Made by a program: the position numbers and the translations under genes
Assembly (NCBI GenBank): GCA_016793775.1
Contig: JAEULK010000011.1
Coordinates: 2,686-66,685, forward strand
DNA from: Sphingopyxis sp.
GTDB taxonomy: Bacteria; Pseudomonadota; Alphaproteobacteria; Sphingomonadales; Sphingomonadaceae
DNA: 64,000 nucleotides
Reading direction: 5' to 3'
Shown: positions 44,033-63,979 of the stretch, piece after piece
How the letters are laid out: each line of letters starts with the position of its first letter
Numbering within the stretch: position 1 is the first letter of the stretch
Notes under the pieces: generated by a model
What the model saw: only the letters and a program-made list of their open reading frames with translations
What the model was told of the DNA's origin: nothing
Database searches by the model: none

Positions 44033-44656
44033 CCAAGGCCACCTGCGGGTCATCACGATGAACCGGTCATTAGGGATGGCGCGTCAAGTCGCGGTGAAAG
44101 GTCAGGGTTAACCGGCAGTTCAGCATGATGCGGCGAACGGCACCCCTTGCCGCCGTCATCGTCATACCCATATTTTTCCGGTGCTTGCTGTTGCCGTTCG
44201 ATGACGCCGATGCTAGCACCCGCAACGCTGACGGTGTCATTGCCTGACCCGTCGGGCCTTATGCGGGGAACGCGCCCAACCGGCACCGGAATGACGGACC
44301 GAACGGCAGCTCTCCCCCGGTGCCCGACAATCCAGGCCTGGCAACCTGCCGTCGGCCCACCCGGATGCCCGGGCAGCGAAGGAAGATCAGCCGCTGGTCG
44401 ATTCGCGCTGGCCGGTCATCCCGCTAAACAGGTTGATGCCGCATGAGGCTTGCCATGCCCTCTTCTCTCCGCGACGCAGGCGCTTTCGCGCGCGCTGTCG
44501 GCCGGGCGGAAGACCGCATGCGCGTCCAGGACAGGACGCAGGCTCCCCGCGGCAATAACGTCTTTTTTCGTTTGAACCCTATCGACCGCAGCCATCCCGA
44601 CCGGATGTCCGCGGCCTTTTTTGTTGGCGCGCCACGGCGTGCCTGGAGTGATAATA

Positions 44657-47293: not shown

Positions 47294-47417
47294 TCGGCGG
47301 CCACGCTGCGACTGATCGCATCGTGGCCCCTGCGGCCTTGCCACCGAGCGTCCCGAACCCCACAAGGCCATCATGGCTTCAGTTGAGGTTCAGGCGCTCG
47401 GCGCAAGGACGCACCCG

Positions 47418-48821: not shown

Positions 48822-48888
48822 ATTCGCCAAATTGACTGGGATACGAAGTGGGGAACGCATCGAACCGATCGATGCGCAAGGGCAACAA

Positions 48889-50526
48889 GTGACGGATAAA
48901 AAAGACGATTATTACCAGCCATGGCTGCGCGACCCAGCACCGACATCGGTGCCCGCCGAAGCGGACACGCGCCCGGCGCAGACCAGCACGCCCGACGACG
49001 GCGGCCTTGCCAAGCCGCGCGCGGTGCCGCCGGTCGGGCTCGACGTGTCGCGCTATCCCGCCGAGGAGCGCATCCCCGCCAAGCCGATCGTCGACAGCGA
49101 GCGACTGAAGGCCGGCGCGAGCGGGCTGTGGCGGGCGATCCGCGATGGCAGCAGCGCCTTTGCCGAGTGGACGATCCGCGTCGGTGAACGCGCCGACATT
49201 CCCGCGCGCGTCGAGGCGATGGAAATCCCGCGCCGCTCGCGCGAACTGGCCGGGCGCGCAGCCAATGCCACCGCGCGCGCCGCGAAAGCCGCCGGACGCG
49301 GGACCGCGCGCGGCAGCGCCGCCGCTGCGGAAGCCAGCGCGAGGGCGTGGGACAAGATGGCGCTCGGCGAAAAGGTCGGCAAATTGTCGAGCGACGCGCA
49401 GCGCGGGCTGGGCGAGGTCGCGGGCAAGGCCGGCGACGCGCTGGGCCAGGCGGCGAAGGCCGGTAAGGACAGCCTGGGCGAGGCAGCGACCAAGCTGCGC
49501 CCGGCGCCGCGCGAAGAGGCCGCGCCGCCCCCTTCGGGGCTCGAACAATTGCTCGCGCGCGAGGCCCGCGAAGAGGCAGAGGGGACAACGAGTGCGGCGC
49601 CAGCAAAGCCCGCCGCGCCCGACCTGCCGCTCTTTGCGAGCGAACCCGGCCTCGACCTCGCCGCGCCCAAGGCGGTCCCGGCGAAGACGACCAGGGCGGC
49701 CTCCGCCACCCCGCCCCCGTCGGTTTCGGCACCCGCCCCCGACGAGCGCATGCCGCACCGTCCGACCCCGCCGCGCACTGGCGCGGGCGGCAGCGGATTC
49801 GCCCTGCCCGCGCCCGGCTGGCTGGTCACGCTCGGCGCTGTGTTCCTGCTCGGTGCCGCCTTCTGGCTCGGCGGACGCTTCGGCGGCGGCCTGTCGAAGA
49901 GTGAGGTCGAGACCGTCGTCGCGGACTATATCGCCGCGAACCCCGAAATCATCCCCGCGGCGTTCGAGGCGCAGCGCGGCCGCGAAATGGCGAAAGCGAT
50001 CGACGCGATCCGCCCGGCGCTCGAAAAACCCTATGCCGGGGCTTGGGCGGGCAATGCCGACGGCGATGTGACGCTGACGGTGTTCACCGATTATGCCTGT
50101 GGCTATTGCCGCGCCAGCCTGCCCGATCTCGACCGGCTGATCCGCAGCGACCGGCGCGTGAAAGTGGTGTTCCGCGAACTGCCGATCATCTCGCCGCAAA
50201 GCCGCGACGCCGCGATCATGGCGCTCGCCGCCGCGCGGCAGGGCAAATATGACGCCTTCCACCATGCGATGTTCGCCGCCCCCTCGCTCGACCGGGGCGC
50301 AATCGCCGCGGCGGCCGAAAAGGCCGGTGTGGTCACCGACGGCAGCGCCGATGCGACCGCCAACGAAGCACTGTTCCAGCGCGAGATCGACAGCAACCTG
50401 GCGATCGCCAGCCAGTTGCAGCTGAACGCCACCCCGACCTGGGTCATCGGCGACCAGTTGCTGCAGGGGCAGATCGGCTACGACGGCCTGCGCACCGCGG
50501 TCGCCAAGGCGCGGGCGAAGGGTTGA
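48889..50526 (+). CDS. DsbA-family thioredoxin with long N-terminal low-complexity extension
   Basis: FTDYACGYC, ELPII, ATPT (cis-Pro); TM segment preceded by more than 300 A/P-rich residues; GTG start inferred. Confidence 0.85.
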   Translation: MTDKKDDYYQPWLRDPAPTSVPAEADTRPAQTSTPDDGGLAKPRAVPPVGLDVSRYPAEERIPAKPIVDSERLKAGASGLWRAIRDGSSAFAEWTIRVGERADIPARVEAMEIPRRSRELAGRAANATARAAKAAGRGTARGSAAAAEASARAWDKMALGEKVGKLSSDAQRGLGEVAGKAGDALGQAAKAGKDSLGEAATKLRPAPREEAAPPPSGLEQLLAREAREEAEGTTSAAPAKPAAPDLPLFASEPGLDLAAPKAVPAKTTRAASATPPPSVSAPAPDERMPHRPTPPRTGAGGSGFALPAPGWLVTLGAVFLLGAAFWLGGRFGGGLSKSEVETVVADYIAANPEIIPAAFEAQRGREMAKAIDAIRPALEKPYAGAWAGNADGDVTLTVFTDYACGYCRASLPDLDRLIRSDRRVKVVFRELPIISPQSRDAAIMALAAARQGKYDAFHHAMFAAPSLDRGAIAAAAEKAGVVTDGSADATANEALFQREIDSNLAIASQLQLNATPTWVIGDQLLQGQIGYDGLRTAVAKARAKG

Positions 50527-52352
50527 GCGGCGCGGGCATGGCGACGGTTACCCATGACGAAGCGCTCGCCAATGCCCGCCGCCTGCTGAGCGAACAGCCC
50601 GGCGCGGCGCTGGCGCAGGCGCTGGCGATCCTCGAGGCCGTGCCGACCTCAGCCGACGCGCACCGGCTCGCGGCGCATGCGTTGCGCGTGCTCGGACGCG
50701 AGGAGGAAGCACAGGCGGCGTCGCTCGAGGCCGTCGCGGCGACGATCCACGACGAGGCGATGATCGACGCCGCGCTCGCGCTCGCCGAAAACCGCCTATC
50801 CGACGCCGAGGGTGCGCTGCGCGCGCGGTTGAAGGCCGACGCGACCGACGTCGCGGCGATCCGCATGCTCGCCGAGGTCGCGGGGCGGATCGGGCGTTAC
50901 GCCGACGCCGAAAAATTGCTGCACCGGGCGCTCGAACTGGCGCCGGGATTCGGCGCGGCACGCGCCAATCTGGCGACCGTTCAATATAAGCAGAACCGCT
51001 TCGCCGACGCCGTGGCGACATTGAGCGACGTACTCGGCGAGGATCCCGACAATCCGGCGCATGCCAATCTGAAGGCCGCGGCGCTCGGGCGGATCGGCGG
51101 GTATGACGAGGCGCTGAGCCTTTATGCCGAATTGACGCGGCGTTTCCCCGACCATGGCAAATTGTGGATGAGTTATGGCCATATGCTGAAGACCGTTGGA
51201 CGGCAAGATGACGGCATCGCCGCCTATCGCCACGCGCTGGCCAGCGAGCCGGGGCTCGGCGAGGTGTGGTGGAGCCTTGCGAACCTCAAGACGATCCGTT
51301 TCGGCGCCGACGACCGCGCCGCGATGGAGGCGGCGCTGGACGCGATCGGCGCCGCCGATGCAGCGCGCGACGACGACCGACTGCACCTGCATTTTGCGCT
51401 CGGCAAGGCGTATGACGACGCCGGCGAGGCCGAAGCGGCGTTCCGCCATTATGCCGCGGGCAACAGGATCCGTGCCGGCCAGCTCGGTTATGAGGCGAGC
51501 GACACGACCGCGCTGGTCGATGCGACGATCGCGACCTGCACCGCCGATTTTTTCGCGGCGCGCGCCGGCAGCGGCGATCCCAGCCCCGACCCGATCTTCA
51601 TCCTCGGGATGCCACGCGCCGGATCGACGCTGGTCGAACAAATCCTGGCGAGTCACTCCGCTATCGAAGGCACGATGGAATTACCCGACATTCCGGCGCT
51701 CGCACTCGGACTCGGGCGCGCCGCGAAAGAGGACGGGCGGCGCTGGGTCGAGGCGCTCGCCGGGCAGCCGCGCGAAAAGCTTGCCGAACTCGGGGCTAAA
51801 TTCCTTCACGACACCGCGGTGCAGCGCAAGACGGACAAGCCCTTCTATATCGACAAGCTGCCGAACAACTGGCTCTATCTGCCGCTGATCCGGCTGATCC
51901 TGCCCAATGCCAGGATCATCGACGCGCGGCGCCATCCGCTCGACTGCGGCTTTTCCAATTTTCGCCAGCATTATGCCAAGGGACAGGCGTTCAGCTATGG
52001 CTTGGCGGACATGGGCGCCTATTACCGCGATTATGTGCGGCTGATGGCGCATATCGACGCGGTCCAGCCGGGCGCCGTGCACCGCGTGATCCACGAAAGG
52101 CTGCTCGACGATCCCGAGGGCGAGGTGCGCGCGCTGCTGGCCTTTCTGGGCCAGCCGTTCGAGGCGGCGTGCATGGATTTTCATCGCAACGCCCGCGCGG
52201 TGCGCACCGCGTCGAGCGAGCAGGTGCGCCGCCCGATCAACCGCGAGGGGGTCGACCAGTGGCGGCCCTATGACGCCTGGCTCGGCCCGCTGAAGGAGGC
52301 GCTCGGTCCGGTGCTGGACGCCTATCCGGCAGCCCCGCCGCGGTTCGGATAA
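50523..52352 (+). CDS. TPR-repeat sulfotransferase
   Basis: N-terminal TPRs; IFILGMPRAGSTLVEQILASHS (5'-PSB loop), DKLPNN, RHPLDCGFS (3'-PB), TASSEQVR. Confidence 0.92.
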   Translation: MSGAGMATVTHDEALANARRLLSEQPGAALAQALAILEAVPTSADAHRLAAHALRVLGREEEAQAASLEAVAATIHDEAMIDAALALAENRLSDAEGALRARLKADATDVAAIRMLAEVAGRIGRYADAEKLLHRALELAPGFGAARANLATVQYKQNRFADAVATLSDVLGEDPDNPAHANLKAAALGRIGGYDEALSLYAELTRRFPDHGKLWMSYGHMLKTVGRQDDGIAAYRHALASEPGLGEVWWSLANLKTIRFGADDRAAMEAALDAIGAADAARDDDRLHLHFALGKAYDDAGEAEAAFRHYAAGNRIRAGQLGYEASDTTALVDATIATCTADFFAARAGSGDPSPDPIFILGMPRAGSTLVEQILASHSAIEGTMELPDIPALALGLGRAAKEDGRRWVEALAGQPREKLAELGAKFLHDTAVQRKTDKPFYIDKLPNNWLYLPLIRLILPNARIIDARRHPLDCGFSNFRQHYAKGQAFSYGLADMGAYYRDYVRLMAHIDAVQPGAVHRVIHERLLDDPEGEVRALLAFLGQPFEAACMDFHRNARAVRTASSEQVRRPINREGVDQWRPYDAWLGPLKEALGPVLDAYPAAPPRFG

Positions 52353-52493
52353 GGGTTTCAGGACAAAACGTTGCCTTTGGGCAACAGGGCGCGACATTTT
52401 CGACCAACAGTCGGCCCGCGTGGCCAACAAGGCTTGCGCTTGCGCTGCACCGCGTCATTCTCCGTCACATAGCTGTCATTTGTGGGGGGTCAC

Positions 52494-54881
52494 ATGCGTA
52501 ACGTTCATACCGTATTGGCACGCGCCAGCGGTGCTTTGCTGGCAACAACGATCCTGTGCACGTCGGGAACGGCGCTGGCGCAGGAAGCGAGCGACACCAA
52601 CGACGACAACGACATCGTCGTCACCGCGTCGAAGCGCGAGGAAAATCTGCAGGATGTGCCGCTGGCGATCACGGCGATCGGCAACGAGCGGCTGAACGAA
52701 CTGCAAGTCAAGGAATTCCAGGACGTCGTCAAATTCCTGCCGTCGGTGACGATCCAGACGCTCGCCCCCGGTTTCAGCCAGGTCTATTTCCGCGGCGTCG
52801 CGAGCGGCGAAAATGCCAACCACTCGGCGTCGCTGCCGACTGTCGGCACCTATCTGGACGAAATGCCGATCACGACGATCCAGGGCGCGCTCGACATCCA
52901 CGCTTACGACTTCGCCCGCGTCGAAGCGCTCGCGGGGCCGCAGGGCACGCTTTATGGCGCCAGCTCGATGGCGGGCACGATCAAGCTGATCACCAACAAG
53001 CCCGACACCAGCGGCACCTATGGCTCGGCGGGGCTGGAGCTCAACAGCGTGTCGCGCGGCGGCATCGGCGGCGTCGCCGAAGGCTTTGTCAACGCTCCGC
53101 TGGGCGAGAGAGCGGCGCTGCGCCTCGTCGCCTGGTACCGCCGCGACGCGGGCTATATCGACAATATCGCGGGCAGCCGCACCTATCCGTCGAGCGGCAT
53201 AACCCAGAACAACAGCGCGCTGGTCGAAAAGGACTATAACGACGTCGATACCTATGGCGCTCGCCTCGCGCTCGGCATCGACCTCAACGACGACTGGACG
53301 ATCCGCCCTACCCTCATGGGCCAGATCCAGAAAGCGAACGGCAGCTTTGCGCAGGAACGCTCGGCGGCGGTTACCCGCTCGCTCCAGACCGTCCAGTACA
53401 ACCCCGAGGGCAGCAAGGACAAATGGCTCCAGGCGGCGATGACCATCGAGGGCAAGATCGGCAATTGGGACCTGACGCTGACCGGCGGCCATCTGCGGCG
53501 CAAGACGACCACCGAAAGCGACTATTCGGATTACGCCTATTTCTACGACGCGCTCTACGGGTCGGGCGCCTTTCTGTACGACAATGCGAACAATCTGGTT
53601 TCGCCGAACCAATATATCCAGGGCATCGACCGCTATAAGCGGACCTTCGGCGAAGCGCGTATCGCCTCGCCGGCCGACGCCCGCATCCGCTTTATCGGCG
53701 GGCTTTTCTATCAGCGCCAGGCGCATAATATCGAACAGAATTACATCATCGACAATATCGCCGACGTCATCACGGTCACCGGCACCGACAGCAATATCTG
53801 GCTGACCAAGCAGCTGCGCGTCGATCGCGATTATGCGGCGTTCGGTGAAATCAGCCTCGACATCACCGACCAGCTGACGCTGACCGGCGGCGGGCGCGTC
53901 TATAAGTTCGACAACAGCCTGGTCGGCTTTTTCGGCTATTCCGCCGGCTATTCGAGCCGCACCGGCGAGGCGGCCTGTTTCGGGCCGGCGATCGTGACAG
54001 GATCGCCCTGTACCAACCTCGACAAAAGGACAAACGACACCGGCTTCATCCACAAGCTCAACCTCAACTACAAGATCAACGACGATGTCATGCTCTATGG
54101 CACCTGGTCGCGCGGTTTCCGCCCCGGCGGCATCAACAGGCGCGGCACGCTGCCGCCCTATAGCCCCGACACGCTCGACAATTACGAGTTCGGCTGGAAG
54201 ACCAGTTTTGGCCCGCTGCGCTTCAACGGCGCGGTCTATCAGGAGGATTGGAAGAATATCCAGCTGTCCTTCCTGGGCGAGAACGGCCTGACCGAGATCC
54301 GCAGCGCCGGCATCGCGCGTATTCGCGGTTTCGAGGTCGACCTGGGCTATCGCGCCGGCGGCTTCTCGCTCAACCTTGGCGGCAGCTATAACGACGCGAC
54401 GATCCGCCGCGATTTCTGTGCGATCGCCAATCCGCAGTTCGACTGCACGATCAACCCGCCGAGCCAGACCAATGCCCTGCTCGCCCCCGCGGGCACGCGC
54501 CTCCCGGTCACCGCGAAGTTCAAGGGCAATGCCGTCGCGCGCTATGAATTCCCGATCAGCGGGATGGACGGCCATGTCCAGTTCGCGGTCAACCATATCG
54601 GCAAGCGGCGGTCGGACCTGCGTATCGTCGAGAACGACATCGTCGGCAATTTCGGCGGTTATACCACTGCCGATTTCAGCATGGGGGTGAAGGGCGAAGG
54701 CTGGAGCGCCGAGCTGTTCGCAACCAATTTGTTCGACAGTCGCGGCGTCATCAACAGCGCGGTGCAATGCGGCGAGAGGATCTGCGGCGATGCCGGCGGC
54801 GGCACCGCCAACGGCGGCGTCTTTTACGATAATGTCATCCGGCCGCGCCTGATCGGGATCAAGGTCAGCAAGGATTTCTGA
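52494..54881 (+). CDS. TonB-dependent receptor
   Basis: Signal peptide; IVVTASKREENLQDVP, RVEALAGPQGTLYGASSMAG, C-terminal F. Confidence 0.96.
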   Translation: MRNVHTVLARASGALLATTILCTSGTALAQEASDTNDDNDIVVTASKREENLQDVPLAITAIGNERLNELQVKEFQDVVKFLPSVTIQTLAPGFSQVYFRGVASGENANHSASLPTVGTYLDEMPITTIQGALDIHAYDFARVEALAGPQGTLYGASSMAGTIKLITNKPDTSGTYGSAGLELNSVSRGGIGGVAEGFVNAPLGERAALRLVAWYRRDAGYIDNIAGSRTYPSSGITQNNSALVEKDYNDVDTYGARLALGIDLNDDWTIRPTLMGQIQKANGSFAQERSAAVTRSLQTVQYNPEGSKDKWLQAAMTIEGKIGNWDLTLTGGHLRRKTTTESDYSDYAYFYDALYGSGAFLYDNANNLVSPNQYIQGIDRYKRTFGEARIASPADARIRFIGGLFYQRQAHNIEQNYIIDNIADVITVTGTDSNIWLTKQLRVDRDYAAFGEISLDITDQLTLTGGGRVYKFDNSLVGFFGYSAGYSSRTGEAACFGPAIVTGSPCTNLDKRTNDTGFIHKLNLNYKINDDVMLYGTWSRGFRPGGINRRGTLPPYSPDTLDNYEFGWKTSFGPLRFNGAVYQEDWKNIQLSFLGENGLTEIRSAGIARIRGFEVDLGYRAGGFSLNLGGSYNDATIRRDFCAIANPQFDCTINPPSQTNALLAPAGTRLPVTAKFKGNAVARYEFPISGMDGHVQFAVNHIGKRRSDLRIVENDIVGNFGGYTTADFSMGVKGEGWSAELFATNLFDSRGVINSAVQCGERICGDAGGGTANGGVFYDNVIRPRLIGIKVSKDF

Positions 54882-54885
54882 TCGG

Positions 54886-56214
54886 GTGACCGACGTCAGC
54901 ACCAACCACGAAAGGCCGGGCCAAAAGCTCGGCCTTTTGATGTGCGTCGCGCTGGGCATGGGCAATATGATCGGGTCGGGGGTGTTCCTGCTGCCGCGAT
55001 CGCTCGCGCCGCTCGGGTGGAACGCGGTCATCGGGTGGGGATTGTCGATCGCCGGTACCCTCTGCCTCGCGGTCGCGCTTGCGCGGCTTGCCAAAAAGCT
55101 GCCCGGCGGCAGTGCGACCTATACCTATGCGGCGACCGCCTTTGGTCCGGGCGTCGGGTTCCTCGTCGCGTGGAGTTACTGGATCAGTTGCTGGACCGTT
55201 GTCTCGACGCTGGCCGTCGCGGCGATCAGCAATTTTTCGATTCTCGCGCCCTCCCTGGCCGGCGGCGGCCACACCGCGGCGCTGATCGCGATCAGCTTCA
55301 TCTGGCTCTTCACCCTGGTGAACCTGATGGGCGTGCGCCGCGCCGGCCGCGCGCAATTGGTCACGCTGGGCCTCAAGTTGATCCCCATACTCGGCGCGGT
55401 AGTCGTCGCATTGTGGTTGTACGGCACCGGCGACGCCCCGACCCCGACGATGGCGCAGACCAAACCCGTCAGCCTCCATAACATCGGCAATGCGGCGACG
55501 CTGACCCTCTTCGCGCTGCTCGGCTTTGAAAGCAGCTGCGTTGTCGGCAACCGCGTGCACGACCCCGAACGCACCATCCCGCGCGCAACGATAATCGCCG
55601 CTGCCGCGACAGGGCTGCTTTATCTTCTCTCATGTACGACGGTCACCTTGCTGCTCCCGCTCGAAACTCTCGAAGCATCGAACTCCCCCTATGCGACTTT
55701 TTTCGGCACGCTCGTCAGCCCATCGGCGGGACAGGCGGTGGCGCTGTTCGCGGCGATCGCGGCGCTCGGCGCGCTCAACGGCTTTGTCCTGTTGCAGGGG
55801 GAAATTCCGCGCGATCTTGCGCATCGGGGACTTTTGCCGCCCATTTTCGCGCGCGATAACCGTTTCGCTGTACCCTGGTTCACCCAGATCTTGTCGAGCG
55901 CCCTTGCCAGCATCGTCGTCTACGCCAATTATTCGCGCGGCCTCGCCAAATTGTTCGAGTTCATGGTGCTGGTGACGACCTCCACCGCGATCATCTTTTA
56001 TATCGTCAGCGCGCTTGCCGCTTTGAAGCTCGAGCATGACGGCACGATCAAGGCGTCACCCGCCTTCGTGACGGTGACGATCCTTGGTTTTCTTTACAGC
56101 TGCTGGGCGTTTTACGGCGCCGAGCTGGAGCCCGGGCTTTGGAGCATCGGCCTGACCGCCGCCGGACTGCCGATCTACCTCGCGATGCGTCGCGCCAGAC
56201 CCGCCATCGCCTGA
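54886..56214 (+). CDS. APC-family amino acid/polyamine permease
   Basis: KLGL...GNMIGSGVFLLP, GFES, PERTIPRA; about 12 TM segments. Confidence 0.93.
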   Translation: MTDVSTNHERPGQKLGLLMCVALGMGNMIGSGVFLLPRSLAPLGWNAVIGWGLSIAGTLCLAVALARLAKKLPGGSATYTYAATAFGPGVGFLVAWSYWISCWTVVSTLAVAAISNFSILAPSLAGGGHTAALIAISFIWLFTLVNLMGVRRAGRAQLVTLGLKLIPILGAVVVALWLYGTGDAPTPTMAQTKPVSLHNIGNAATLTLFALLGFESSCVVGNRVHDPERTIPRATIIAAAATGLLYLLSCTTVTLLLPLETLEASNSPYATFFGTLVSPSAGQAVALFAAIAALGALNGFVLLQGEIPRDLAHRGLLPPIFARDNRFAVPWFTQILSSALASIVVYANYSRGLAKLFEFMVLVTTSTAIIFYIVSALAALKLEHDGTIKASPAFVTVTILGFLYSCWAFYGAELEPGLWSIGLTAAGLPIYLAMRRARPAIA

Positions 56215-56258
56215 TACTTGCCCCAATGGGCAAAAGCGCCTATCGGCCTGTTCCCGTT

Positions 56259-56280
56259 GGCCCGGAACCGGGCCTTTTTG
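56259..56280 (+). terminator. Intrinsic terminator after the permease
   Basis: GGCCCGG-AA-CCGGGCC-TTTTT. Confidence 0.8.
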
Positions 56281-56460
56281 GAGACGTGACGTGTCGGACC
56301 GCCGAATAATTCAGGGTTTGAATCTCTGCGGCATCCGCCCGCTGTCGTAGCGCGTTTTTCCCGACGCGGTGCGCTTCGGGCGCTGCCGCAATTTCTCCAA
56401 CCCGCCCATCATACTTCTGCCGCCGGGCGCCGTGCGTCCGCCGGCCGCAGGCAGGACTTT

Positions 56461-58452
56461 ATGTTGTACGACAGCCATTGGGCGCGTGCGCTGGCGCGCG
56501 CCATCGCCACGGATCATCCGGGCAAGAGCAAGACCGGGCGAGCCCTGCTCGCCTGGGTCCGCGCGCGCGCCGCCGCGCTCGGGCTGGACGAGAAGAATAT
56601 CTCGCGCGCCGCGCTGCTGGGGGACCCCGTGGTTCCGTCCGCGGACGCGCGCGAGGACGAGAGCCTGGTGCAGGCCAGCCGGCTGGCCGACGCGCTCGAG
56701 TTGCCCGGCACCGAACGCGCGTTGCTGCTGCTCGCGACGGCGCTCGATCGCGCCCCGCTGACCCGTAGTCTGGAACAGCTGATCGGGACCGAAAAGCTCG
56801 ACATGGAGACGCTGGCGGGCGCGGTCGCCGGGATCGCGCCGCACGCGCTGCGCCGCGCCGAGGTGGTGCGGCTCGACCTCGTGGGACGCTGGACCGACAA
56901 GAGCGGCGCGGTCGAACTCGGCCTGTGCTGGGCCTTCGAGCGGCTGCTCGACGCACCGCCTGGGCGCCACGACAGTCTGCTCGACGGGCTGCTGGGGGCG
57001 CGGCAGGTCGCGCGGCACGGCCTCGACGATTTCCCGGCCTACCGTAGCGAGGCCGAGTTGGCGACGCGGCTGCTGCGCGGGGCGATCGATCGCGGGGCGC
57101 GCGGAATCAACATCCTGATCCACGGGCCGCCGGGCACGGGCAAGACCGAGCTGGCGCGCAGCCTGGCCGCCGCGGTCGGCGAACCGCTGCACGGGGTTGG
57201 CGAGGCCGACAGCGACGGCGACGAACCGGCGCGGCACGACCGCGTCGCGGCGCTGAAGCTCGCGCTGCGCACGCTCGAAAAGCGCGGGCGCGCGCTGCTG
57301 CTGTTCGACGAAATGGAGGATCTGCTCGGCAACACGCAGGTCGAACAGGATGGCCGGGTGCGCCAGCGCGCCGGCTCGAAGCTGTTCGTCAACCGCCTGC
57401 TCGAAGAGAATGTCGTGCCGGTGATCTGGACGTCGAACGCCGTTGCCGACGTCGATCCCGCAATCCTGCGGCGCTTCAGCCTGTCGATCCGCATGGACTT
57501 CCCCGGCTCCGCGCACAGCCCCGCGATGCTCGAACGGGTGAGCGCCGAGGAGAGCGTCGCGGTCGATCCGGCGCTGCAGGCGCTGGCGGCGACCGCGCCC
57601 GAGGCCGCGTCGCTGTTCCGCGTCGCGGCGCGCGCCGCCGCGCTGGCGGGCGACGCCGCGAGCGCCAGCCGCTTCGCGGGGTCGGTGTTGGGCACGCTGC
57701 ACGGCCGCGAGGTCGCGCCGCGACCGCCGCGTGCGTTCGACGAGACGCTGCTGACCGCCGACACCGACCTGCCTGCGCTGTTCGCGAGCCTGGCGCGCGT
57801 CGACGCGCCCGCCGATGTCTCGCTGCTGCTCACCGGCGAGCCTGGGACGGGCAAGACCGAGGCGGTACAGGCGCTGGCGCGGCGGCTGGGCCGGCCGCTG
57901 CATATCAAGCGGGCGTCGGACCTGATGTCGAAATGGGTCGGCGAGACCGAGAAGGCGATCGTACGCGCCTTTGCCGACGCCAGGCGGCAGGGCGCGATGC
58001 TGTTCTTCGACGAGGTCGATTCGCTGCTCGCCGACCGGCAGGGCGCGTCGCAGAGCTGGGAGGTCAGCCAGGTCAACGAACTGTTGACCTGGATGGAGGA
58101 TCATCCTTTGCCCTTCGCCGCAGCGACCAACCATGTCGCGAAGCTCGACCCCGCGTCGGCGAGGCGCTTCGTGTTCAAGGTCGAGATGCGGGCGCTCGAT
58201 GCCGAACGCGCGCGGCGGGCGTTCGTCCATTTCTTCGGCCGCGAGGCGCCGGCGACGCTCGACCGGATCGGCGCGCTGACGCTCGGCGACTTTGCGGTCG
58301 TCGCGCGGCAGATGCGCTTTGTCGGAGGGATCGACGATCGGGCGTTGATCGATCGGCTGCGGCGCGAGCGCGCGGCGCGCCCGGCGCTGCCGCAGCCGAT
58401 CGGTTTCGGGTCAGACGCGCCACTTCGGCGCGAAGAAACCCCGGTCGCGTAA
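56461..58452 (+). CDS. Tandem (double) AAA+ ATPase
   Basis: GPPGTGKT / LLLFDE and GEPGTGKT / MLFFDE; SKWVGE pore loop; AATN. Confidence 0.9.
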   Translation: MLYDSHWARALARAIATDHPGKSKTGRALLAWVRARAAALGLDEKNISRAALLGDPVVPSADAREDESLVQASRLADALELPGTERALLLLATALDRAPLTRSLEQLIGTEKLDMETLAGAVAGIAPHALRRAEVVRLDLVGRWTDKSGAVELGLCWAFERLLDAPPGRHDSLLDGLLGARQVARHGLDDFPAYRSEAELATRLLRGAIDRGARGINILIHGPPGTGKTELARSLAAAVGEPLHGVGEADSDGDEPARHDRVAALKLALRTLEKRGRALLLFDEMEDLLGNTQVEQDGRVRQRAGSKLFVNRLLEENVVPVIWTSNAVADVDPAILRRFSLSIRMDFPGSAHSPAMLERVSAEESVAVDPALQALAATAPEAASLFRVAARAAALAGDAASASRFAGSVLGTLHGREVAPRPPRAFDETLLTADTDLPALFASLARVDAPADVSLLLTGEPGTGKTEAVQALARRLGRPLHIKRASDLMSKWVGETEKAIVRAFADARRQGAMLFFDEVDSLLADRQGASQSWEVSQVNELLTWMEDHPLPFAAATNHVAKLDPASARRFVFKVEMRALDAERARRAFVHFFGREAPATLDRIGALTLGDFAVVARQMRFVGGIDDRALIDRLRRERAARPALPQPIGFGSDAPLRREETPVA

Positions 58453-60018
58453 CACCACCTCGGCGGCGTTGTGCCCCGGCGCGCCGGTGACGCCGCCGCC
58501 GGGGTGGGCGCCCGCGCCGCACATATAGAGGTTCTTCACCGGCCCGCGATAACCGCCATTGCCGAGCACGGGGCGCGCGGCCCAGAGCTGGTCGAGCGTC
58601 ATATTGCCGTGCATGATGTCGCCGTCGATCAGGCCGAACTTGCGTTCGAGGCCCTTGGGCGACAGGCGCGTCTGGCCGACGATGCTGGCGCGAAAGCCGG
58701 GGGCATGTTGCTCGACGGTATCGATGATCGCGTCGGCGGCGGCGCCTTCCTCCTCGTCCCAGTCCCGACCGTCCGGCAGCTCGGGCGCGAATTGCTGGCA
58801 GAAGAGGCTGGCGACGTGGCTACCGGGAGGGGCGAGGCTGGCGTCGACGGTCGAGGGGATGAGCATCTCGACGATCGGCTTCTTCGACCAGCCATATTGT
58901 TTCGCGTCGAGGAAGGCGCGGTCCATATAATCGAGTGTCGGCGCGAGGATGATGCCCGACTGGTGATGCTCGCCGGGTTCGGGGAGACAGGTGAATTTGG
59001 GGAGTTCGCTGAGCGCGACGTTCATGCGGAAGGTGCCGCTGCCGGCCTTGAAGCCGCGGATACGGCGCTGGAAATCGCCCGGCAGATCGGAGGCGTCCAT
59101 CAGCCGTTCGTAGAGCAGTTTCGGCCCGACATTAGCGATGACGCGCGCGGCGGCGATCTCCTCGCCGCCGACGAGCTTCACCCCAACCGTCTTGTCGCCG
59201 TCGACGAGCACCTTCTCTACCGGGCTTTCGAGGCTGATCTCGACGCCGAGGTCGCGGCAGACCTTGGCCATGATCTCGGTGATCTTGCCCATGCCGCCGA
59301 CGCTGTGGCCCCAGGCGCCCTTCTTGCCGTTCACTTCGCCGAAGACGTGGTGGAGCAGCACATAGGCGCTGCCCGGGGTGTCGGGGCTCGCATAATTGCC
59401 GACGACGGCGTCGAAGCCGAAGGCGGCCTTGACCGCCTCACTCTCGAACCAAGCGTCCAGCATCGTGCGCGCGGACTTGGTGAACAGGTCCAGCACGTCG
59501 CGCTGCTGTTCGAGGCTGAGCCCCGCAAAGCGCCGCCCCTGCCGCGCGCCGTCGATCAGGGTGCGGAAGCCTTCGCCCACATTGGGCGGCACGCGCAGCG
59601 CGAGGTCGCGGAGCAGTTCGGCGACATTTTCGAGCGCATCATAATATTGGGGCAGCACGTCGGCGTCGTGGTTGCTGAACTTACGGAACTCAGCCTGGGT
59701 GCGTTCGAGCCCGCCACCCAGCTTCAAATAGCCGCCATCCTCCTGCGGCAGGAAGTTGCTGATCGGCCGCTCGATGACGCGATAGCCATGATCGGCGAGC
59801 TTCATGTCGGCGATCACCTTGGGCTGGAGCAGGCTGACCGTGTAGCTGGCGACCGAATTGCGGAAACCCGGTGCGAATTCCTCGGTCACTGCGGCACCGC
59901 CGACGACGTCGCGCGCCTCGACGATGCGCACCTTGAGCCCCGCCCTCGCGAGATAGAAGGCGCAAACGAGGCCATTGTGGCCGGCGCCGATAATCAGGGC
60001 GTCATAAGCTTTGGTCAT
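58411..60018 (-). CDS. Phytoene-desaturase-like FAD-dependent oxidoreductase
   Basis: IIGAGHNGL, EARDVVGGAA, LYMCGAGAHPGGGVTGAPG. Confidence 0.9.
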   Translation of the reverse strand: MTKAYDALIIGAGHNGLVCAFYLARAGLKVRIVEARDVVGGAAVTEEFAPGFRNSVASYTVSLLQPKVIADMKLADHGYRVIERPISNFLPQEDGGYLKLGGGLERTQAEFRKFSNHDADVLPQYYDALENVAELLRDLALRVPPNVGEGFRTLIDGARQGRRFAGLSLEQQRDVLDLFTKSARTMLDAWFESEAVKAAFGFDAVVGNYASPDTPGSAYVLLHHVFGEVNGKKGAWGHSVGGMGKITEIMAKVCRDLGVEISLESPVEKVLVDGDKTVGVKLVGGEEIAAARVIANVGPKLLYERLMDASDLPGDFQRRIRGFKAGSGTFRMNVALSELPKFTCLPEPGEHHQSGIILAPTLDYMDRAFLDAKQYGWSKKPIVEMLIPSTVDASLAPPGSHVASLFCQQFAPELPDGRDWDEEEGAAADAIIDTVEQHAPGFRASIVGQTRLSPKGLERKFGLIDGDIMHGNMTLDQLWAARPVLGNGGYRGPVKNLYMCGAGAHPGGGVTGAPGHNAAEVVLRDRGFFAPKWRV

Positions 60019-61181
60019 TTTCGGCTCCATCCCGCACGCGGGGCTTGTTCGAGGCGGGATTCGGGAATCAGGTCGCGCATGCGCGAACAGAAATGCTTGA
60101 GGCAGACTTCCTTGTCGCTGAGCGGGCCCATGGTGAAGGTCTTGGACTGCATACCCGCCTGCACGCGCGTGATCAGTTCGGTATCCTCGGCGTTGACCTG
60201 GCGGTTGATGCGCCAGTTCAAATAACGCGCGGCCTTCATCTCGCGGCGCTCATCGGGAAGCACATAGGAAATTTCGCGGATCAGGCACGTCGTCGGCCCG
60301 GTCGGCAGCCATTGCATGAAATCGACCTGGTCGGGATAGATGTCGAACGCGACATTGGGCCAGAGCTTGAAATAGAGCCAGTGGCGCTGGCGGTCTTCGG
60401 GCAGGTGCGGGACCGGCGGCAGCAGCCGCTGATACATGCGTTCGGACCAATTGGCCGAGGGCCGGTCGATCAGATCGCCCCACATGCGATCGACATCATC
60501 CTCCGCCTCGACGCCATAGCTTTTGCCGAACAGGCGCGTGAGGCCGGGGTGCGCGACGGGGATGTGGAGGCCATCGGAATAATTGTCGCCGACATTCTTC
60601 CAGTTCACCTCGCGCGGGCGCAGCGTGACGCGGCCGAGAGCGCCGAGGCCCTCGAAGCGGTACGGCTCCACTATCGCCTCATATGGCGCCATCATCGACG
60701 CCACCGTAGGTCCGCCGTCATCCTCGAGCCGGACGAACCAGAAGCCACGCCATTGTTCGAGGCCGACCGGGACGAGCCCCGCCTTGCCCTTATCGAGCGT
60801 GGGGTAGCTCATACTGTCGGGCACGCCGGTGAGGCGTCCGTCGAGGTCGTAGGTCCAGGCGTGATAGGGGCAGACGAGTTTCTTGGCGCAGCCCGCCGCG
60901 CCGTCGACGAGGCGCGAGCCGCGGTGGCGGCAGACGTTGGTGAAGGCGCGCACGACGCGGTCGGCACCGCGCACGACGAGGACGCTCTCGCCGCAATAAT
61001 CGATGCTGTGCCAGTCGCCGGAGTTCGGGATGTCGCTGTCGTGGCAGACGACCTGCCAGCTCGGGCGGAAGATGCGCGCAATTTCGGCGGCGTGGAAGTC
61101 GGGGTCGCTGTAGGTCCAGGCGGGCAGCGACCAGCCGTCGAGCGGGTCGATGTTGGTGAAAGTGTCGCGCAGCGTTGCCAT
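60015..61181 (-). CDS. Rieske non-heme iron oxygenase alpha subunit
   Basis: NVCRHRG...CPYHAW Rieske motif; NWK...DGLHIPVAH iron site; ED. Confidence 0.93.
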   Translation of the reverse strand: MATLRDTFTNIDPLDGWSLPAWTYSDPDFHAAEIARIFRPSWQVVCHDSDIPNSGDWHSIDYCGESVLVVRGADRVVRAFTNVCRHRGSRLVDGAAGCAKKLVCPYHAWTYDLDGRLTGVPDSMSYPTLDKGKAGLVPVGLEQWRGFWFVRLEDDGGPTVASMMAPYEAIVEPYRFEGLGALGRVTLRPREVNWKNVGDNYSDGLHIPVAHPGLTRLFGKSYGVEAEDDVDRMWGDLIDRPSANWSERMYQRLLPPVPHLPEDRQRHWLYFKLWPNVAFDIYPDQVDFMQWLPTGPTTCLIREISYVLPDERREMKAARYLNWRINRQVNAEDTELITRVQAGMQSKTFTMGPLSDKEVCLKHFCSRMRDLIPESRLEQAPRAGWSRK

Positions 61182-61190
61182 GAGTCGATC

Positions 61191-61214
61191 CTTGTTGTAC
61201 AGACGTATAACAAG
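61191..61214. promoter_or_regulatory. Putative TetR operator filling a 33-bp divergent gap
   Basis: CTTGTTGTAC-AGAC-GTATAACAAG (9 of 10 arm positions match). Confidence 0.75.
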
Positions 61215-61808
61215 ATGCAGCCCGCTCGCCAAGCCTTTACGCGCGAAAGCGCCGATGCCCGGAGGGCCGACCTGATCGAGGCGACCGCCGCGGTGCTCGC
61301 CGAAGCTGGCCTGGTCGGCACCAATGTGCGCGCGATCTGCGCGCGGGCCGGGGTGTCACCCGGCCTTTTGCGCCATTATTTCGGCGGCATCGACGATCTG
61401 GTCGCCGCCACCTACCAGGCGACGAGCGACCGGATGGACGCGATCTTCGCCGCCGCGGTCGAGCGCGCGGGGCCCGACCCGCGCGCCCGGCTGAACGCCT
61501 ATCTGACCGCGAGCTTTCGCCCGCCGGTGACCGATCCCGAGCTGCTCGGCGCCTGGACCGCCTTTTGGGCCTTGGCCAGAAGCGACGCGCGCATGACGTG
61601 CATCCACGCGGAAAGCTATGCCGGTTACCGCGCGCGGCTGGCCGACCTGCTCGCAGCGTGCGGGGCGCAGGACGCCGGGCGGCTGGCGATCATACTGACC
61701 GCGATGGTCGACGGGCTGTGGCTCGAACTATCGCTCGACGCCGACAGCTTCGGCGCCGCGGCGGCGACGGCGATGATCGAACAGGCGGTGGCGGCGCTGC
61801 TGCCCTGA
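61215..61808 (+). CDS. TetR family regulator with BetI-type C-terminus
   Basis: RRADLIEA...GVSPGLLRHYF; WTAFW; MVDGLWL. Confidence 0.9.
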   Translation: MQPARQAFTRESADARRADLIEATAAVLAEAGLVGTNVRAICARAGVSPGLLRHYFGGIDDLVAATYQATSDRMDAIFAAAVERAGPDPRARLNAYLTASFRPPVTDPELLGAWTAFWALARSDARMTCIHAESYAGYRARLADLLAACGAQDAGRLAIILTAMVDGLWLELSLDADSFGAAAATAMIEQAVAALLP

Positions 61809-63322: not shown

Positions 63323-63979
63323 CTACGACGCCTTTTTGGCCTTCAGCGCCGGGGTCTTCGGCTTGAACCGGCACAAATCGTCGACCGGGCAGCGCCAGCA
63401 CTCCGGGGTGCGCGCCTTGCAGATGTAGCGGCCGTGGAGGATCAGCCAGTGGTGGGCGCCGACGCGAAACGGCTGCGGGGTTTCCTTGTCGAGCTTTTTT
63501 TCGACCGCGAGCACGGTCTTGCCGGGGGCGAGGCCGGTGCGGTTGCCGACGCGGAAGATATGGGTGTCGACCGCGAAAGTCTCTGCCCCGAAGGCGCAAT
63601 TCATCACGACATTGGCGGTCTTGCGCCCGACGCCGGGCAGCTCGACGAGGGTGTCGCGGTCGGCGGGCACGTCGCCGCCGAAGTCGCGGACGAGGATTTC
63701 GCTGAGCGCGATGACATTCTTCGCCTTGGCATTGAACAGCCCGATGGTCTTGATGTGCTGCTTGAGGCCCGCTTCGCCGAGATCGACCATTTGCTGCGGG
63801 GTCTTCACCTCCTGGAACAGCAGCCGCGTCGCCTTGTTCACGCCGACGTCGGTCGCCTGCGCCGAGAGTAGGACCGCGACGAGCAACTGGTAGGTGTTGC
63901 CATAGCGCAGCTCGGTCTCCGGGCTGGGGTTCAGTTCGGCGAGGCGGCGGTAGAATTCAAAGATATCGGCCTTCTTCAT
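63323..63979 (-). CDS. nth: Endonuclease III
   Basis: LLSAQATD, LPGVGRKTAN, VDTH, C-x6-C-x2-C-x5-C. Confidence 0.98.
   Translation of the reverse strand: MKKADIFEFYRRLAELNPSPETELRYGNTYQLLVAVLLSAQATDVGVNKATRLLFQEVKTPQQMVDLGEAGLKQHIKTIGLFNAKAKNVIALSEILVRDFGGDVPADRDTLVELPGVGRKTANVVMNCAFGAETFAVDTHIFRVGNRTGLAPGKTVLAVEKKLDKETPQPFRVGAHHWLILHGRYICKARTPECWRCPVDDLCRFKPKTPALKAKKAS

What the first reader, a model, noticed from the sequence alone, without database searches (positions are those of the whole stretch)
50523..61808. Uncharacterised uptake/catabolism cluster: TPR-sulfotransferase, TonB receptor, APC permease, FAD oxidoreductase, Rieske oxygenase, BetI-like TetR
Seen: the sulfotransferase has intact PAPS motifs and no signal peptide, and sits next to an outer-membrane receptor and an amine/amino-acid permease. 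On the other side are a coupled Rieske/FAD pair divergent from a BetI-type regulator; no Rieske reductase is in the window. Known: BetI-type regulators and related Rieske enzymes handle quaternary amines. Inference: import and breakdown of an N-methylated or sulfated amine, with the sulfotransferase either removing sulfate (PAP to PAPS), tagging the substrate, or modifying a protein held by its TPRs. I know no described pathway for this combination.
Basis: partly seen in the sequence, partly recalled or inferred. Interest (0 to 1): 0.6.

Follow-up and report, generated by a model that had tools for sequence, protein, structure and literature searches.

The report
Receptor-sulfotransferase pair with amine demethylation genes
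A Sphingopyxis gene cluster joins an outer-membrane receptor and its constant partner, a cytoplasmic enzyme resembling animal protein-tyrosine sulfotransferases, to genes that probably import and demethylate a positively charged amine; the grouping is conserved in many bacteria but nobody has tested what it does.

Summary
The genes are real and sit at the stated coordinates.

- The sulfotransferase (ST) is followed by the TonB receptor in 41 of 44 fully flanked loci across Alpha- and Gammaproteobacteria.
- ST and receptor orthologues occur in exactly the same 25 of 81 Sphingomonadaceae genomes.
- dsbA adjacency is found only in Sphingopyxis.
- An APC permease, a Rieske oxygenase, a flavoprotein, a TetR and peptidases join the pair in about two thirds of loci, in shuffled orders.
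- Co-regulation is not shown. The TetR operator (61192-61213) is the only such site in the genome.

The ST domain is closest to tyrosylprotein sulfotransferases, which argues for a protein or peptide target rather than sulfate removal. The flavoprotein belongs to the family UniRef names PYROXD2.

Best reading (about 0.5): TonB-powered uptake and oxidative N-demethylation of a cationic methylated amine or amino acid. The ST may modify the receptor (about 0.3, untested). I found no publication on this. The scan has noted the receptor-ST pair before in at least 114 other genomes.

The parts
50523..52352 (+). Cytoplasmic TPR + tyrosylprotein-sulfotransferase-like PAPS sulfotransferase (609 aa from the TTG start; the ATG at 50538 is more likely)
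   Evidence: Pfam Sulfotransfer_3 at 6e-44 plus TPR families. AlphaFold model with pLDDT 91. For the catalytic domain, the best Foldseek hits are TPST1/2 and tick TPST, with target-normalised TM 0.59-0.72. R365, K445, S564 and E382/E386 align with the TPST catalytic residues.
52370..52385 (.). Perfect palindrome GTTGCCTTTGGGCAAC in the gap between the ST and receptor genes; candidate operator of an unknown regulator
   Evidence: Seen. It is the only perfect site of this form in the genome. TTGC-N6-GCAA with at most 1 mismatch occurs in 20 of 67 ST-receptor gaps, against 3.9 +/- 2.1 in shuffles.
52494..54881 (+). TonB-dependent receptor (795 aa) with a Sec signal peptide, a TonB box (DIVVTA) and a conserved aromatic/acidic motif DYSDYAYFYD at residues 343-352
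   Evidence: Pfam Plug plus TonB_dep_Rec_b-barrel. Model with pLDDT 87: a 22-strand barrel, with the motif at the start of extracellular loop 4. The motif is invariant in the alignment. It is found in 1 of 50 receptor-like ORFs in this genome.
54886..56214 (+). APC-superfamily permease (442 aa), nearest the basic amino acid/polyamine antiporter subfamily; starts 4 nt after the receptor stop
   Evidence: Pfam AA_permease_2 at 1e-50. TIGR00905 scores 241 bits and AdiC 231 bits, both below their cut-offs.
56259..56281 (+). Terminator-like hairpin with a T-run that ends the ST-receptor-permease transcription unit
   Evidence: GGCCCGGAACCGGGCC followed by TTTTTGG.
56461..58452 (+). Double-AAA ATPase (663 aa). 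A lineage-specific insertion, not part of the conserved cluster
   Evidence: Pfam AAA in two stretches. Present only in this genome and in S. microcysteis. Absent from a Sphingopyxis MAG whose ST is 82% identical and from all other loci. Partial IetA/IteA-like match, 118 bits.
58411..60030 (-). Phytoene-desaturase-family (PYROXD2-like) FAD flavoprotein (539 aa), translationally coupled to the Rieske gene
   Evidence: Pfam Amino_oxidase. CrtO-like at 249 bits and crtI_fam at 121 bits, both below cut-off. Sphingomonad proteins 83-84% identical to it carry the UniRef name PYROXD2. The nearest Atlas cluster includes chordate members.
60015..61181 (-). Rieske non-haem-iron oxygenase alpha subunit (388 aa), with no beta subunit or reductase nearby
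   Evidence: Pfam Rieske plus Ring_hydroxyl_A. Nearest solved structures are CntA (1e-34) and Stc2 (3e-29). GbcA model scores 144 bits against a cut-off of 670.
61192..61213 (.). 22-bp palindromic operator TTGTTGTACAGACGTATAACAA, which fills the 33-bp gap between the divergent Rieske and TetR genes
   Evidence: Conserved in 9 genera. It is the only site of at least 14 bits in the whole genome. It lies at the same place in all loci that carry the TetR.
61215..61808 (+). TetR-family regulator with a BetI-type C-terminal domain (197 aa)
   Evidence: Pfam TetR_N plus TetR_C_6 at 1e-22. The BetI equivalog scores 107.6 bits, below its cut-offs of 118 and 201.
61812..63185 (-). Periplasmic M20 metallopeptidase (457 aa, with a signal peptide); a facultative member of the cluster
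   Evidence: NF006596 scores 611 bits, above its cut-off. Found within 10 kb of ST in 12 of 44 full loci. In one relative an operator-like site precedes it (L013:2147, 22 bits).

Best explanation
This is a conserved composite locus with two layers.

Layer 1 is an invariant two-gene module. A cytoplasmic enzyme with a long TPR arm fused to a tyrosylprotein-sulfotransferase-like PAPS domain is encoded directly before a TonB-dependent receptor. The receptor's extracellular loop 4 begins with a conserved aromatic/acidic motif, DY(S/T)DYxxxYD.

Layer 2 is a facultative set of genes for a cationic N-methylated amine or amino acid.
- An APC permease of the basic amino acid/polyamine type. A sister clade has a BCCT transporter instead.
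- A Rieske mono-oxygenase related to the quaternary-amine demethylases CntA, Stc2 and GbcA.
- A flavoprotein coupled to the Rieske gene. Here it is PYROXD2-like. In Xanthomonadales it is an OYE/FadH-type enzyme.
- A BetI-like TetR repressor that binds one 22-bp palindrome.
- Periplasmic peptidases.

Proposed mechanism (inferred):
1. The receptor captures and imports a scarce cationic methylated compound, or a short peptide carrying it.
2. Periplasmic M20 or Xaa-Pro-type peptidases release it.
3. The APC permease carries it across the inner membrane.
4. The Rieske enzyme hydroxylates an N-methyl group, which leaves as formaldehyde.
5. The flavoprotein removes further methyl groups, or feeds electrons to the Rieske enzyme.
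6. The TetR derepresses the operon when the ligand is present.

The sulfotransferase most likely sulfates tyrosine in a protein or peptide. The unfolded receptor precursor is the leading candidate, but this is unproven.
For: Shown:
- Gene identities.
- ST-receptor adjacency in 67 of 80 loci, and in 41 of 44 loci with at least 8 kb on each side, across two proteobacterial classes.
- ST and receptor orthologues are present in exactly the same 25 of 81 family genomes.
- The Rieske orthologue is present in 21 of those 25 and in 2 of the other 56.
- Accessory genes are kept despite changes in order and orientation.
- The sister ST clade has the order receptor-ST-BCCT.
- Xanthomonadales loci carry a second Rieske type, with the Glu bridge seen in CntA and Stc2, plus an OYE/FadH flavoprotein and APC, divergent from ST-receptor.
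- The ST fold and catalytic residues are TPST-like.
- A paralogous TPR-ST in the same genome also follows a TonB receptor and precedes an Asp/Asn beta-hydroxylase.
- The receptor motif lies at the start of extracellular loop 4.
- The TetR operator is conserved and unique in the genome.
- A terminator follows the APC gene.
- UniRef names close homologues of the flavoprotein PYROXD2. The human PYROXD2 locus is associated with N2-acetyl,N6,N6-dimethyllysine (PMC13352909).
Against: - No substrate has been identified.
- Every family-specific NCBIfam cut-off (GbcA, BetI, AdiC/TIGR00905, CrtI/CrtO) is missed.
- The window's Rieske enzyme has the canonical Asp, not the Glu that CntA and Stc2 show at the bridging position.
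- No reductase partner was found.
- The flavoprotein orthologue occurs alone, with no conserved neighbours, in about 16 other alphaproteobacterial families. Its link to this pathway is therefore lineage-specific.
- 15 of 44 loci have ST-receptor and none of the accessory genes.
- No TetR operator lies before ST, the receptor or APC.
- For receptor sulfation: other ST-linked receptors (the sister clade and the paralogous locus on contig C88) lack an acidic tyrosine cluster. An unlinked receptor paralogue carries the same motif variant as some linked ones.
Confidence: 0.5

Rival explanations
1. The sulfotransferase acts on the imported compound, not on a protein. For example, it could O-sulfate the phenol of an imported aromatic amine or tyrosine-containing peptide (hordenine- or candicine-like N-methyl tyramines, or N-methyl-tyrosine) in the cytoplasm. 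That could serve as a pathway step, a way to trap the compound, or detoxification.
For: ST co-occurs with the catabolic genes. The PF13469 fold also includes small-molecule enzymes: the CurM and OLS sulfotransferase domains are among the hits. The APC family includes tyrosine/tyramine antiporters, though the match is weak at 73 bits.
Against: A 340-residue TPR arm is typical of enzymes that act on proteins, such as OGT and SPY, which were the top whole-chain hits. In a third of loci ST is paired with the receptor and nothing else, with no inner-membrane transporter. The paralogous ST sits beside a protein-type Asp/Asn hydroxylase.
Confidence: 0.2
2. ST-receptor is a metal or chelate uptake pair analogous to CciT-CciO, PiuA-PiuC and Fiu-YbiX, in which an outer-membrane transporter needs a cytoplasmic enzyme. 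On this reading the amine genes are only frequent neighbours.
For: The receptor's nearest structures are siderophore receptors (FyuA, Fiu, FoxA). CciT function strictly requires the cytoplasmic dioxygenase CciO (PMC12004947), which shows that such partnerships exist.
Against: No iron-related genes are co-conserved. The accessory set is consistently amine- or peptide-related: APC, BCCT, Rieske demethylase types, aminotransferase and peptidases. Rieske and ST-receptor co-occur in 21 of 25 genomes.
Confidence: 0.1
3. The Rieske-flavoprotein-TetR operon acts on a hydrophobic or aromatic compound, by ring or side-chain hydroxylation plus desaturation, and has nothing to do with N-demethylation.
For: The flavoprotein's best named models are carotenoid enzymes (CrtO, CrtI). 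The Rieske enzyme keeps the canonical Asp bridge of ring-hydroxylating oxygenases and also matches HcaE and AntA models.
Against: There is no beta subunit, ferredoxin or aromatic-pathway gene nearby. The neighbours are an amine permease and peptidases. The regulator's ligand domain is BetI-type. Xanthomonadales replace the pair with a CntA/Stc2-type Rieske enzyme plus an OYE flavoprotein.
Confidence: 0.1
4. The genes are unrelated neighbours: envelope genes, a receptor, a permease and a separate catabolic operon, with no shared function.
For: There are at least three transcription units, a terminator after APC, an inserted ATPase gene, and a TetR regulon confined to its own divergent promoter.
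Against: The genes stay linked in two proteobacterial classes despite rearrangement, and they co-occur in the same genomes.
Confidence: 0.07

Closest known systems
Tyrosylprotein sulfotransferases (human TPST1/2, tick TPST; bacterial RaxST of Xanthomonas oryzae)
   Same: The PAPS-binding fold is the same. The 5'-PSB motif (PRAGST against PRSGTT), the catalytic Arg, Lys and Ser, and the STDQV-type C-terminal motif (SSEQVRRPIN against STDQVIKPVN) are all conserved. These enzymes are the best structural matches for the catalytic domain.
   Different: It is fused to about 340 residues of TPR repeats, giving an overall architecture like OGT or SPY. It is cytoplasmic and always encoded next to a TonB-dependent receptor. 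No RaxX-like precursor peptide or RaxABC-type exporter lies nearby. The acceptor is unknown. The RaxST comparison rests on my recollection and was not tested here.
Glycine betaine, stachydrine and carnitine oxidative demethylation (GbcAB then DgcAB then SoxBDAG; Stc2/3/4 and StcD; CntAB)
   Same: An alpha-only Rieske mono-oxygenase of the same branch is paired with a flavoprotein and controlled by a BetI-type TetR, next to an amine or betaine transporter. The logic of a Rieske step for quaternary N followed by a flavoprotein step for tertiary or secondary N would carry over (the pathway logic is from established knowledge).
   Different: There is no FNR-type reductase. The flavoprotein is PYROXD2/CrtI-type, not DgcA- or Sox-type. 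The Rieske enzyme has an Asp bridge, not Glu. It scores far below the GbcA cut-off (144 against 670 bits). An outer-membrane TonB receptor and periplasmic peptidases are part of the neighbourhood.
CciT-CciO of Caulobacter crescentus (with PiuA-PiuC and Fiu-YbiX)
   Same: It is an operonic, widely co-conserved pair of a TonB-dependent transporter and a cytoplasmic enzyme. The transporter's function requires the enzyme, by an unknown mechanism (PMC12004947).
   Different: The partner there is an Fe(II)/2OG dioxygenase and the system serves iron acquisition under Fur control. Here the partner is a TPR-sulfotransferase and the context is amine or peptide catabolism.
Animal PYROXD2
   Same: It belongs to the same CrtI-like flavoprotein family according to UniRef naming of 83-84% identical Sphingomonad proteins and a shared Atlas cluster. 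Human variants associate with N6,N6-dimethyl-lysine derivatives and trimethylamine, which matches the demethylation context here.
   Different: The reaction of PYROXD2 is unknown. I made no direct alignment to the human protein. The bacterial gene is coupled to a Rieske oxygenase only in Sphingomonadaceae and a few other groups.

Membership tests
Tyrosylprotein-sulfotransferase-like PAPS sulfotransferases (Pfam PF13469) | Pfam Sulfotransfer_3 match above the gathering score | tested here: met
   151 bits against a cut-off of 27
Tyrosylprotein-sulfotransferase-like PAPS sulfotransferases (Pfam PF13469) | 5'-phosphosulfate-binding loop and 3'-phosphate-binding residues conserved | tested here: met
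   P364, R365, G367, S368 and T369, plus R469 and R470, are invariant in 49 sequences
Tyrosylprotein-sulfotransferase-like PAPS sulfotransferases (Pfam PF13469) | TPST catalytic residues (Arg, Glu, Lys, Ser) present at aligned positions | tested here: inconclusive
   R365, K445 and S564 align to the TPST1 residues. The Glu could be E382 or E386, because the alignment has a gap there
Tyrosylprotein-sulfotransferase-like PAPS sulfotransferases (Pfam PF13469) | Fold closest to solved TPSTs | tested here: met
   Target-normalised TM: 5wri 0.72, 3ap3 0.64, 8w5z 0.59. All rank above other sulfotransferases except OLS-ST, which is comparable at 0.57
Tyrosylprotein-sulfotransferase-like PAPS sulfotransferases (Pfam PF13469) | Transfers sulfate to peptidyl tyrosine | not testable with these tools
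   Needs an enzyme assay or mass spectrometry
TonB-dependent transporters | Signal peptide, TonB box, plug domain and 22-strand barrel | tested here: met
   Pfam Plug plus barrel. The model shows a plug and 22 strands. The signal peptide ends in ALAQ and the TonB box is DIVVTA
CntA/GbcA/Stc2-type quaternary-amine Rieske mono-oxygenases | Rieske CxH...CxxH cluster ligands and the two His ligands of the mononuclear iron site | tested here: met
   CRHRG...CPYHAW and DGLHIPVAH are aligned to CntA
CntA/GbcA/Stc2-type quaternary-amine Rieske mono-oxygenases | Glu, instead of Asp, three residues before the first iron-binding His | tested here: not met
   The window has DNYSDGLH. CntA has DNYMECYH and Stc2 has ENNRECYH. 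Asp is present in 18 of 19 orthologues. The second Rieske type found in other loci has Glu
CntA/GbcA/Stc2-type quaternary-amine Rieske mono-oxygenases | Reaches the NCBIfam GbcA equivalog cut-off | tested here: not met
   144 bits against 670
CntA/GbcA/Stc2-type quaternary-amine Rieske mono-oxygenases | Adjacent FNR-type reductase (GbcB or CntB) | tested here: not met
   No PF00175 match anywhere in the genome, which is 96% complete
CrtI / phytoene desaturase family (including PYROXD2) | FAD-binding Amino_oxidase fold | tested here: met
   PF01593 at 70 bits against a cut-off of 19.8. CrtI structure 4dgk matches at 3e-20 over the full length
CrtI / phytoene desaturase family (including PYROXD2) | Reaches the carotenoid-enzyme equivalog cut-offs (CrtO, crtI_fam) | tested here: not met
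   249 bits against 1000, and 121 bits against 238. No carotenoid genes lie nearby
CrtI / phytoene desaturase family (including PYROXD2) | Orthology to animal PYROXD2 | tested here: inconclusive
   Supported only by the UniRef name on 83-84% identical proteins and an Atlas cluster with chordate members. No direct alignment was made
BetI-type TetR repressors | TetR_N HTH domain plus TetR_C_6 ligand domain | tested here: met
   41 and 81 bits, both above cut-off
BetI-type TetR repressors | Reaches the BetI equivalog cut-off and sits with betA, betB and betT | tested here: not met
   107.6 bits against cut-offs of 201 and 118. No bet genes lie nearby
APA (basic amino acid/polyamine antiporter) subfamily of APC | Reaches the TIGR00905 or AdiC/PotE/CadB cut-offs | tested here: not met
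   241 bits against 409, and 231 bits against 574. It is a member of the APC superfamily only (Pfam)

The most novel reading that the evidence does not exclude
The TPR-sulfotransferase sulfates tyrosines of the TonB-dependent receptor precursor in the cytoplasm before Sec export. The target would be the invariant DYSDYAYFYD stretch that opens extracellular loop 4, and the result would be a sulfotyrosine-lined binding site for a cationic methylated ligand. This would be the first post-translational sulfation of a bacterial outer-membrane protein. It would also be a general mechanism behind hundreds of receptor/TPR-sulfotransferase gene pairs.
Probability: 0.25. Interest if true: 0.9.

Novelty: new variant of a known kind. 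Interest (0 to 1): 0.62.

Why it matters
Three open questions become testable in one culturable group of bacteria.

1. What do the widespread gene pairs of a TonB receptor and a TPR-sulfotransferase do? I found no paper on them. The partner enzyme looks like the animal enzymes that sulfate secreted proteins.
2. What reaction does the PYROXD2-type flavoprotein catalyse? Human genetics ties PYROXD2 to dimethyl-lysine derivatives and trimethylamine. Here its bacterial relative is translationally coupled to a demethylase-type Rieske oxygenase under a ligand-responsive repressor.
3. How do oligotrophic Sphingomonads, Caulobacters and Xanthomonads scavenge cationic methylated nitrogen compounds across the outer membrane?

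The unique 22-bp operator gives a simple reporter or EMSA handle for finding the substrate.

Tried and rejected
- **Riboswitch or other known RNA before the receptor:** none found at E up to 1.
- **TetR operator before ST, the receptor, APC or M20 in this genome:** none of at least 10 bits. A single regulon is therefore not supported.
- **Genomic context of the flavoprotein outside Sphingomonadaceae:** 20 loci from other alphaproteobacterial families share no neighbour at all, so they give no clue to the substrate.
- **Using the DYxDY receptor motif as a marker of ST linkage:**
  - It is unique among 50 receptor-like ORFs in this genome.
  - The sister-clade receptor and the receptors next to the paralogous ST lack any acidic tyrosine cluster.
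  - An unlinked paralogue (L144) has the same DYSYYTVAYD variant as several linked ones.
  - The motif therefore tracks orthology and does not prove sulfation.
- **Further co-conserved families in 80 loci:** only a class-III aminotransferase (6 loci), an S9 peptidase (5) and an SDR (5).
- **Structural neighbours of the receptor:** generic siderophore-type receptors, which do not reveal the ligand.
- **Literature searches** for TPR-sulfotransferase with TonB receptors: nothing relevant.
- **My initial reading** that these were unrelated units: abandoned after the neighbourhood and co-occurrence results.

Full report
**Anatomy**

The window comes from a Sphingopyxis genome. The sulfotransferase (ST) is 83% identical to that of S. 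microcysteis. ORF listing and Pfam/NCBIfam scans give this gene order:

| Gene | Coordinates | Strand |
|---|---|---|
| rne | 44621-47293 | + |
| M48/BepA-like TPR protease | 47373-48821 | + |
| DsbA-domain protein | ends at 50526 | + |
| TPR-sulfotransferase (ST) | 50523-52352 | + |
| TonB-dependent receptor | 52494-54881 | + |
| APC permease | 54886-56214 | + |
| double-AAA ATPase | 56461-58452 | + |
| CrtI/PYROXD2-like flavoprotein | 58411-60030 | - |
| Rieske oxygenase | 60015-61181 | - |
| TetR with BetI-type ligand domain | 61215-61808 | + |
| periplasmic M20 peptidase | 61812-63185 | - |
| nth | 63323-63979 | - |

It overlooked the AAA ATPase.
- The receptor and permease genes are 4 nt apart, and a clean hairpin with a T-run follows the permease (56259-56281). 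ST-receptor-APC therefore looks like one transcription unit.
- The Rieske and flavoprotein genes overlap by 16 nt.
- The divergent Rieske and TetR starts are 33 bp apart.

**Is it a cluster?**

I fetched neighbourhoods of ST homologues from 40 places in 81 genomes of the same family. I also fetched the 80 best relatives in a collection with one genome per species.

- ST is followed on the same strand by the orthologous receptor in 67 of 80 loci. Where at least 8 kb is available on each side, the figure is 41 of 44.
- These loci span Sphingomonadales, Caulobacterales, Parvularculaceae, Steroidobacteraceae and Xanthomonadales.
- In the 81-genome family sample, receptor orthologues occur in 25 genomes. 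These are exactly the 25 with the orthologous ST.
- dsbA and M48 accompany ST only in Sphingopyxis.
- The AAA ATPase is present only here and in S. microcysteis. It is absent from another Sphingopyxis whose ST is 82% identical. It is a recent insertion with a partial IetA-like match.

**The facultative layer**

Genes within 10 kb of ST, counted in the 44 fully flanked loci:

| Gene | Loci (of 44) |
|---|---|
| APC permease | 20 |
| Rieske oxygenase, either type | 20 |
| flavoprotein orthologue | 13 |
| M20 peptidase | 12 |
| amidohydrolase | 11 |
| TetR | 9 |
| OYE/FadH-type flavoprotein | 3 |
| none of these | 15 |

- The amidohydrolase reaches the NCBIfam Xaa-Pro dipeptidase cut-off.
- A class-III aminotransferase and an S9 peptidase recur in 5-6 of all 80 loci.
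- Order and orientation vary: the accessory genes lie upstream, downstream or divergent. Conservation despite this variation argues for a functional link rather than frozen synteny.
- The Rieske orthologue is present in 21 of the 25 family genomes with ST-receptor, and in 2 of the 56 without it. Related genomes are not independent, so I give no P-value.
- A sister ST clade (43-48% identical) has the order receptor-ST-BCCT, where BCCT is a betaine/choline/carnitine-type transporter.
- Xanthomonadales loci have a second Rieske type plus APC plus an OYE/FadH flavoprotein, divergent from ST-receptor.

**Regulation**

- The Rieske/TetR gap holds a 22-bp palindrome, TTGTTaTACannnGTATAACAA, which is conserved in nine genera.
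- A position-weight scan finds only this one site in the whole genome. No site lies before ST, the receptor, APC or M20.
- In two relatives, extra sites precede the Xaa-Pro dipeptidase-type gene (L005) and the M20 gene (L013).
- The TetR therefore controls the Rieske-flavoprotein operon and itself. Co-regulation with the uptake genes is not shown.
- A different palindrome, GTTGCCTTTGGGCAAC (52370-52385), lies between ST and the receptor. TTGC-N6-GCAA with at most one mismatch occurs in 20 of 67 such gaps, against 3.9 +/- 2.1 in shuffles. The regulator that binds it is unknown.

**The sulfotransferase**

- A 49-sequence alignment shows invariant PAPS-binding motifs.
- The AlphaFold model (pLDDT 91) shows about 17 TPR-type helices followed by the catalytic domain.
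- With Foldseek, the whole chain resembles OGT and SPY, which are TPR enzymes that modify proteins. The catalytic domain is closest to tyrosylprotein sulfotransferases (target-normalised TM 0.59-0.72). The OLS and CurM sulfotransferase domains come next.
- The sequence alignment to TPST1 matches R365, K445 and S564 and the SSEQVRRPIN motif to the TPST catalytic residues. The catalytic Glu is either E382 or E386.
- The protein has no signal peptide.
- A paralogous TPR-ST elsewhere in this genome also follows a TonB receptor, and it precedes an Asp/Asn beta-hydroxylase and another receptor.
- This pattern favours a protein or peptide acceptor. Nothing supports a reverse reaction that removes sulfate.

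**The receptor**

- The model (pLDDT 87) is a standard plug plus 22-strand barrel.
- An invariant aromatic/acidic stretch, DYSDYAYFYD (residues 343-352), ends strand 7 and forms a helix at the start of extracellular loop 4.
- It is the only such motif among 50 receptor-like ORFs in this genome.
- An aromatic and acidic surface suits a cationic or quaternary-ammonium ligand. This is an inference from known betaine- and methyl-lysine-binding sites.
- It also resembles TPST acceptor sites. However, the other ST-linked receptors lack an acidic tyrosine cluster. An unlinked paralogue carries the same DYSYYTVAYD variant as several linked ones.
- Receptor sulfation therefore remains a hypothesis. I put it at about 0.25-0.3.

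**The catabolic pair**

- The Rieske enzyme's nearest solved relatives are carnitine mono-oxygenase CntA (1e-34) and stachydrine demethylase Stc2 (3e-29). Its best NCBIfam model is GbcA, but far below the cut-off.
- It carries Asp where CntA and Stc2 have Glu before the first iron-binding His. The second Rieske type found in other loci has Glu.
- No FNR-type reductase domain is found anywhere in the genome.
- The flavoprotein is a CrtI-family enzyme and no carotenoid genes are near it.
- Sphingomonad proteins 83-84% identical to the flavoprotein carry the UniRef name PYROXD2. The closest Atlas cluster includes chordate members.
- Human PYROXD2 variants associate with N2-acetyl,N6,N6-dimethyl-lysine, and the gene is linked to trimethylamine metabolism (PMC13352909).
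- Outside Sphingomonadaceae the flavoprotein orthologue (up to 75% identity) stands alone, with no conserved neighbours. The Rieske orthologue is rare there.
- By analogy with GbcAB followed by DgcAB (established knowledge), the Rieske enzyme would remove a methyl group from a quaternary or tertiary nitrogen, and the flavoprotein would handle the next step. Alternatively, the flavoprotein could be the missing electron donor.

**Verdict**

Co-conservation holds and the N-methyl-amine theme is plausible. Co-regulation is not shown, sulfate removal is unsupported, and protein modification is the best-supported role for ST.
- No publication on the receptor/TPR-ST pair turned up.
- The closest published precedent for a receptor that depends on a cytoplasmic enzyme is CciT-CciO (PMC12004947).
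- Earlier notes of this scan report the same pair in at least 114 other genomes. They also report the Rieske-flavoprotein-TetR unit and a PYROXD2-linked demethylation locus in other Sphingomonads. I used these notes as leads and re-tested what I could.

Noticed in passing
window 56461-58452 (+): A 663-aa protein with two AAA+ domains is inserted between the permease terminator and the flavoprotein gene. Its 3' end overlaps the convergent flavoprotein gene by 42 bp. It is present only here and in S. microcysteis. One domain has a partial match to the anti-phage ATPase IetA/IteA (118 bits), but no IetS-like partner was seen.
   Followed up: partly
window 52370-52385: A perfect palindrome, GTTGCCTTTGGGCAAC, lies between the sulfotransferase and receptor genes. 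The TTGC-N6-GCAA form recurs at the same place in Sphingomonad relatives: 20 of 67 gaps against about 4 expected. The regulator is unknown.
   Followed up: partly
G000 contig C88, locus L143:5723-17882: A second module in the same genome has this order: 1046-aa TonB receptor, paralogous TPR-sulfotransferase (28% identical), a small gene, an Asp/Asn beta-hydroxylase-family protein, and a 1025-aa TonB receptor. It is another receptor-linked set of enzymes that resemble protein-modifying enzymes.
   Followed up: partly
whole genome G000 (contigs C34, C86): No PF00175 (FNR-type reductase) domain was found in a 96%-complete genome that has at least five Rieske oxygenase genes. Four of those genes lie within a few kb of TonB-receptor ORFs: three on C34 (8005, 23215, 33969) and one on C86 (6865).
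   Followed up: no
L144 (G029:C3:310000-328000): A receptor paralogue (41% identical) is not next to any sulfotransferase. About 5 kb away lie a Rieske gene (29% to the second Rieske type) and a PYROXD2-like gene (39%). The link between receptor and demethylase genes therefore persists without the sulfotransferase.
   Followed up: partly
window 47373-50526 (+): A BepA-like M48/TPR protease and a DsbA-domain protein lie directly upstream of the sulfotransferase, only in Sphingopyxis. The open frame that holds the DsbA domain runs for 635 aa (48619-50526). Its first 400 or so residues match no Pfam family and GC there reaches 75%, so the true start, or an extra gene, is unresolved.
   Followed up: no
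L011:11390-12283 (G070): An IS element (rve integrase) is inserted between the receptor and the APC permease in one relative. This is another sign that this junction tolerates insertions.
   Followed up: no
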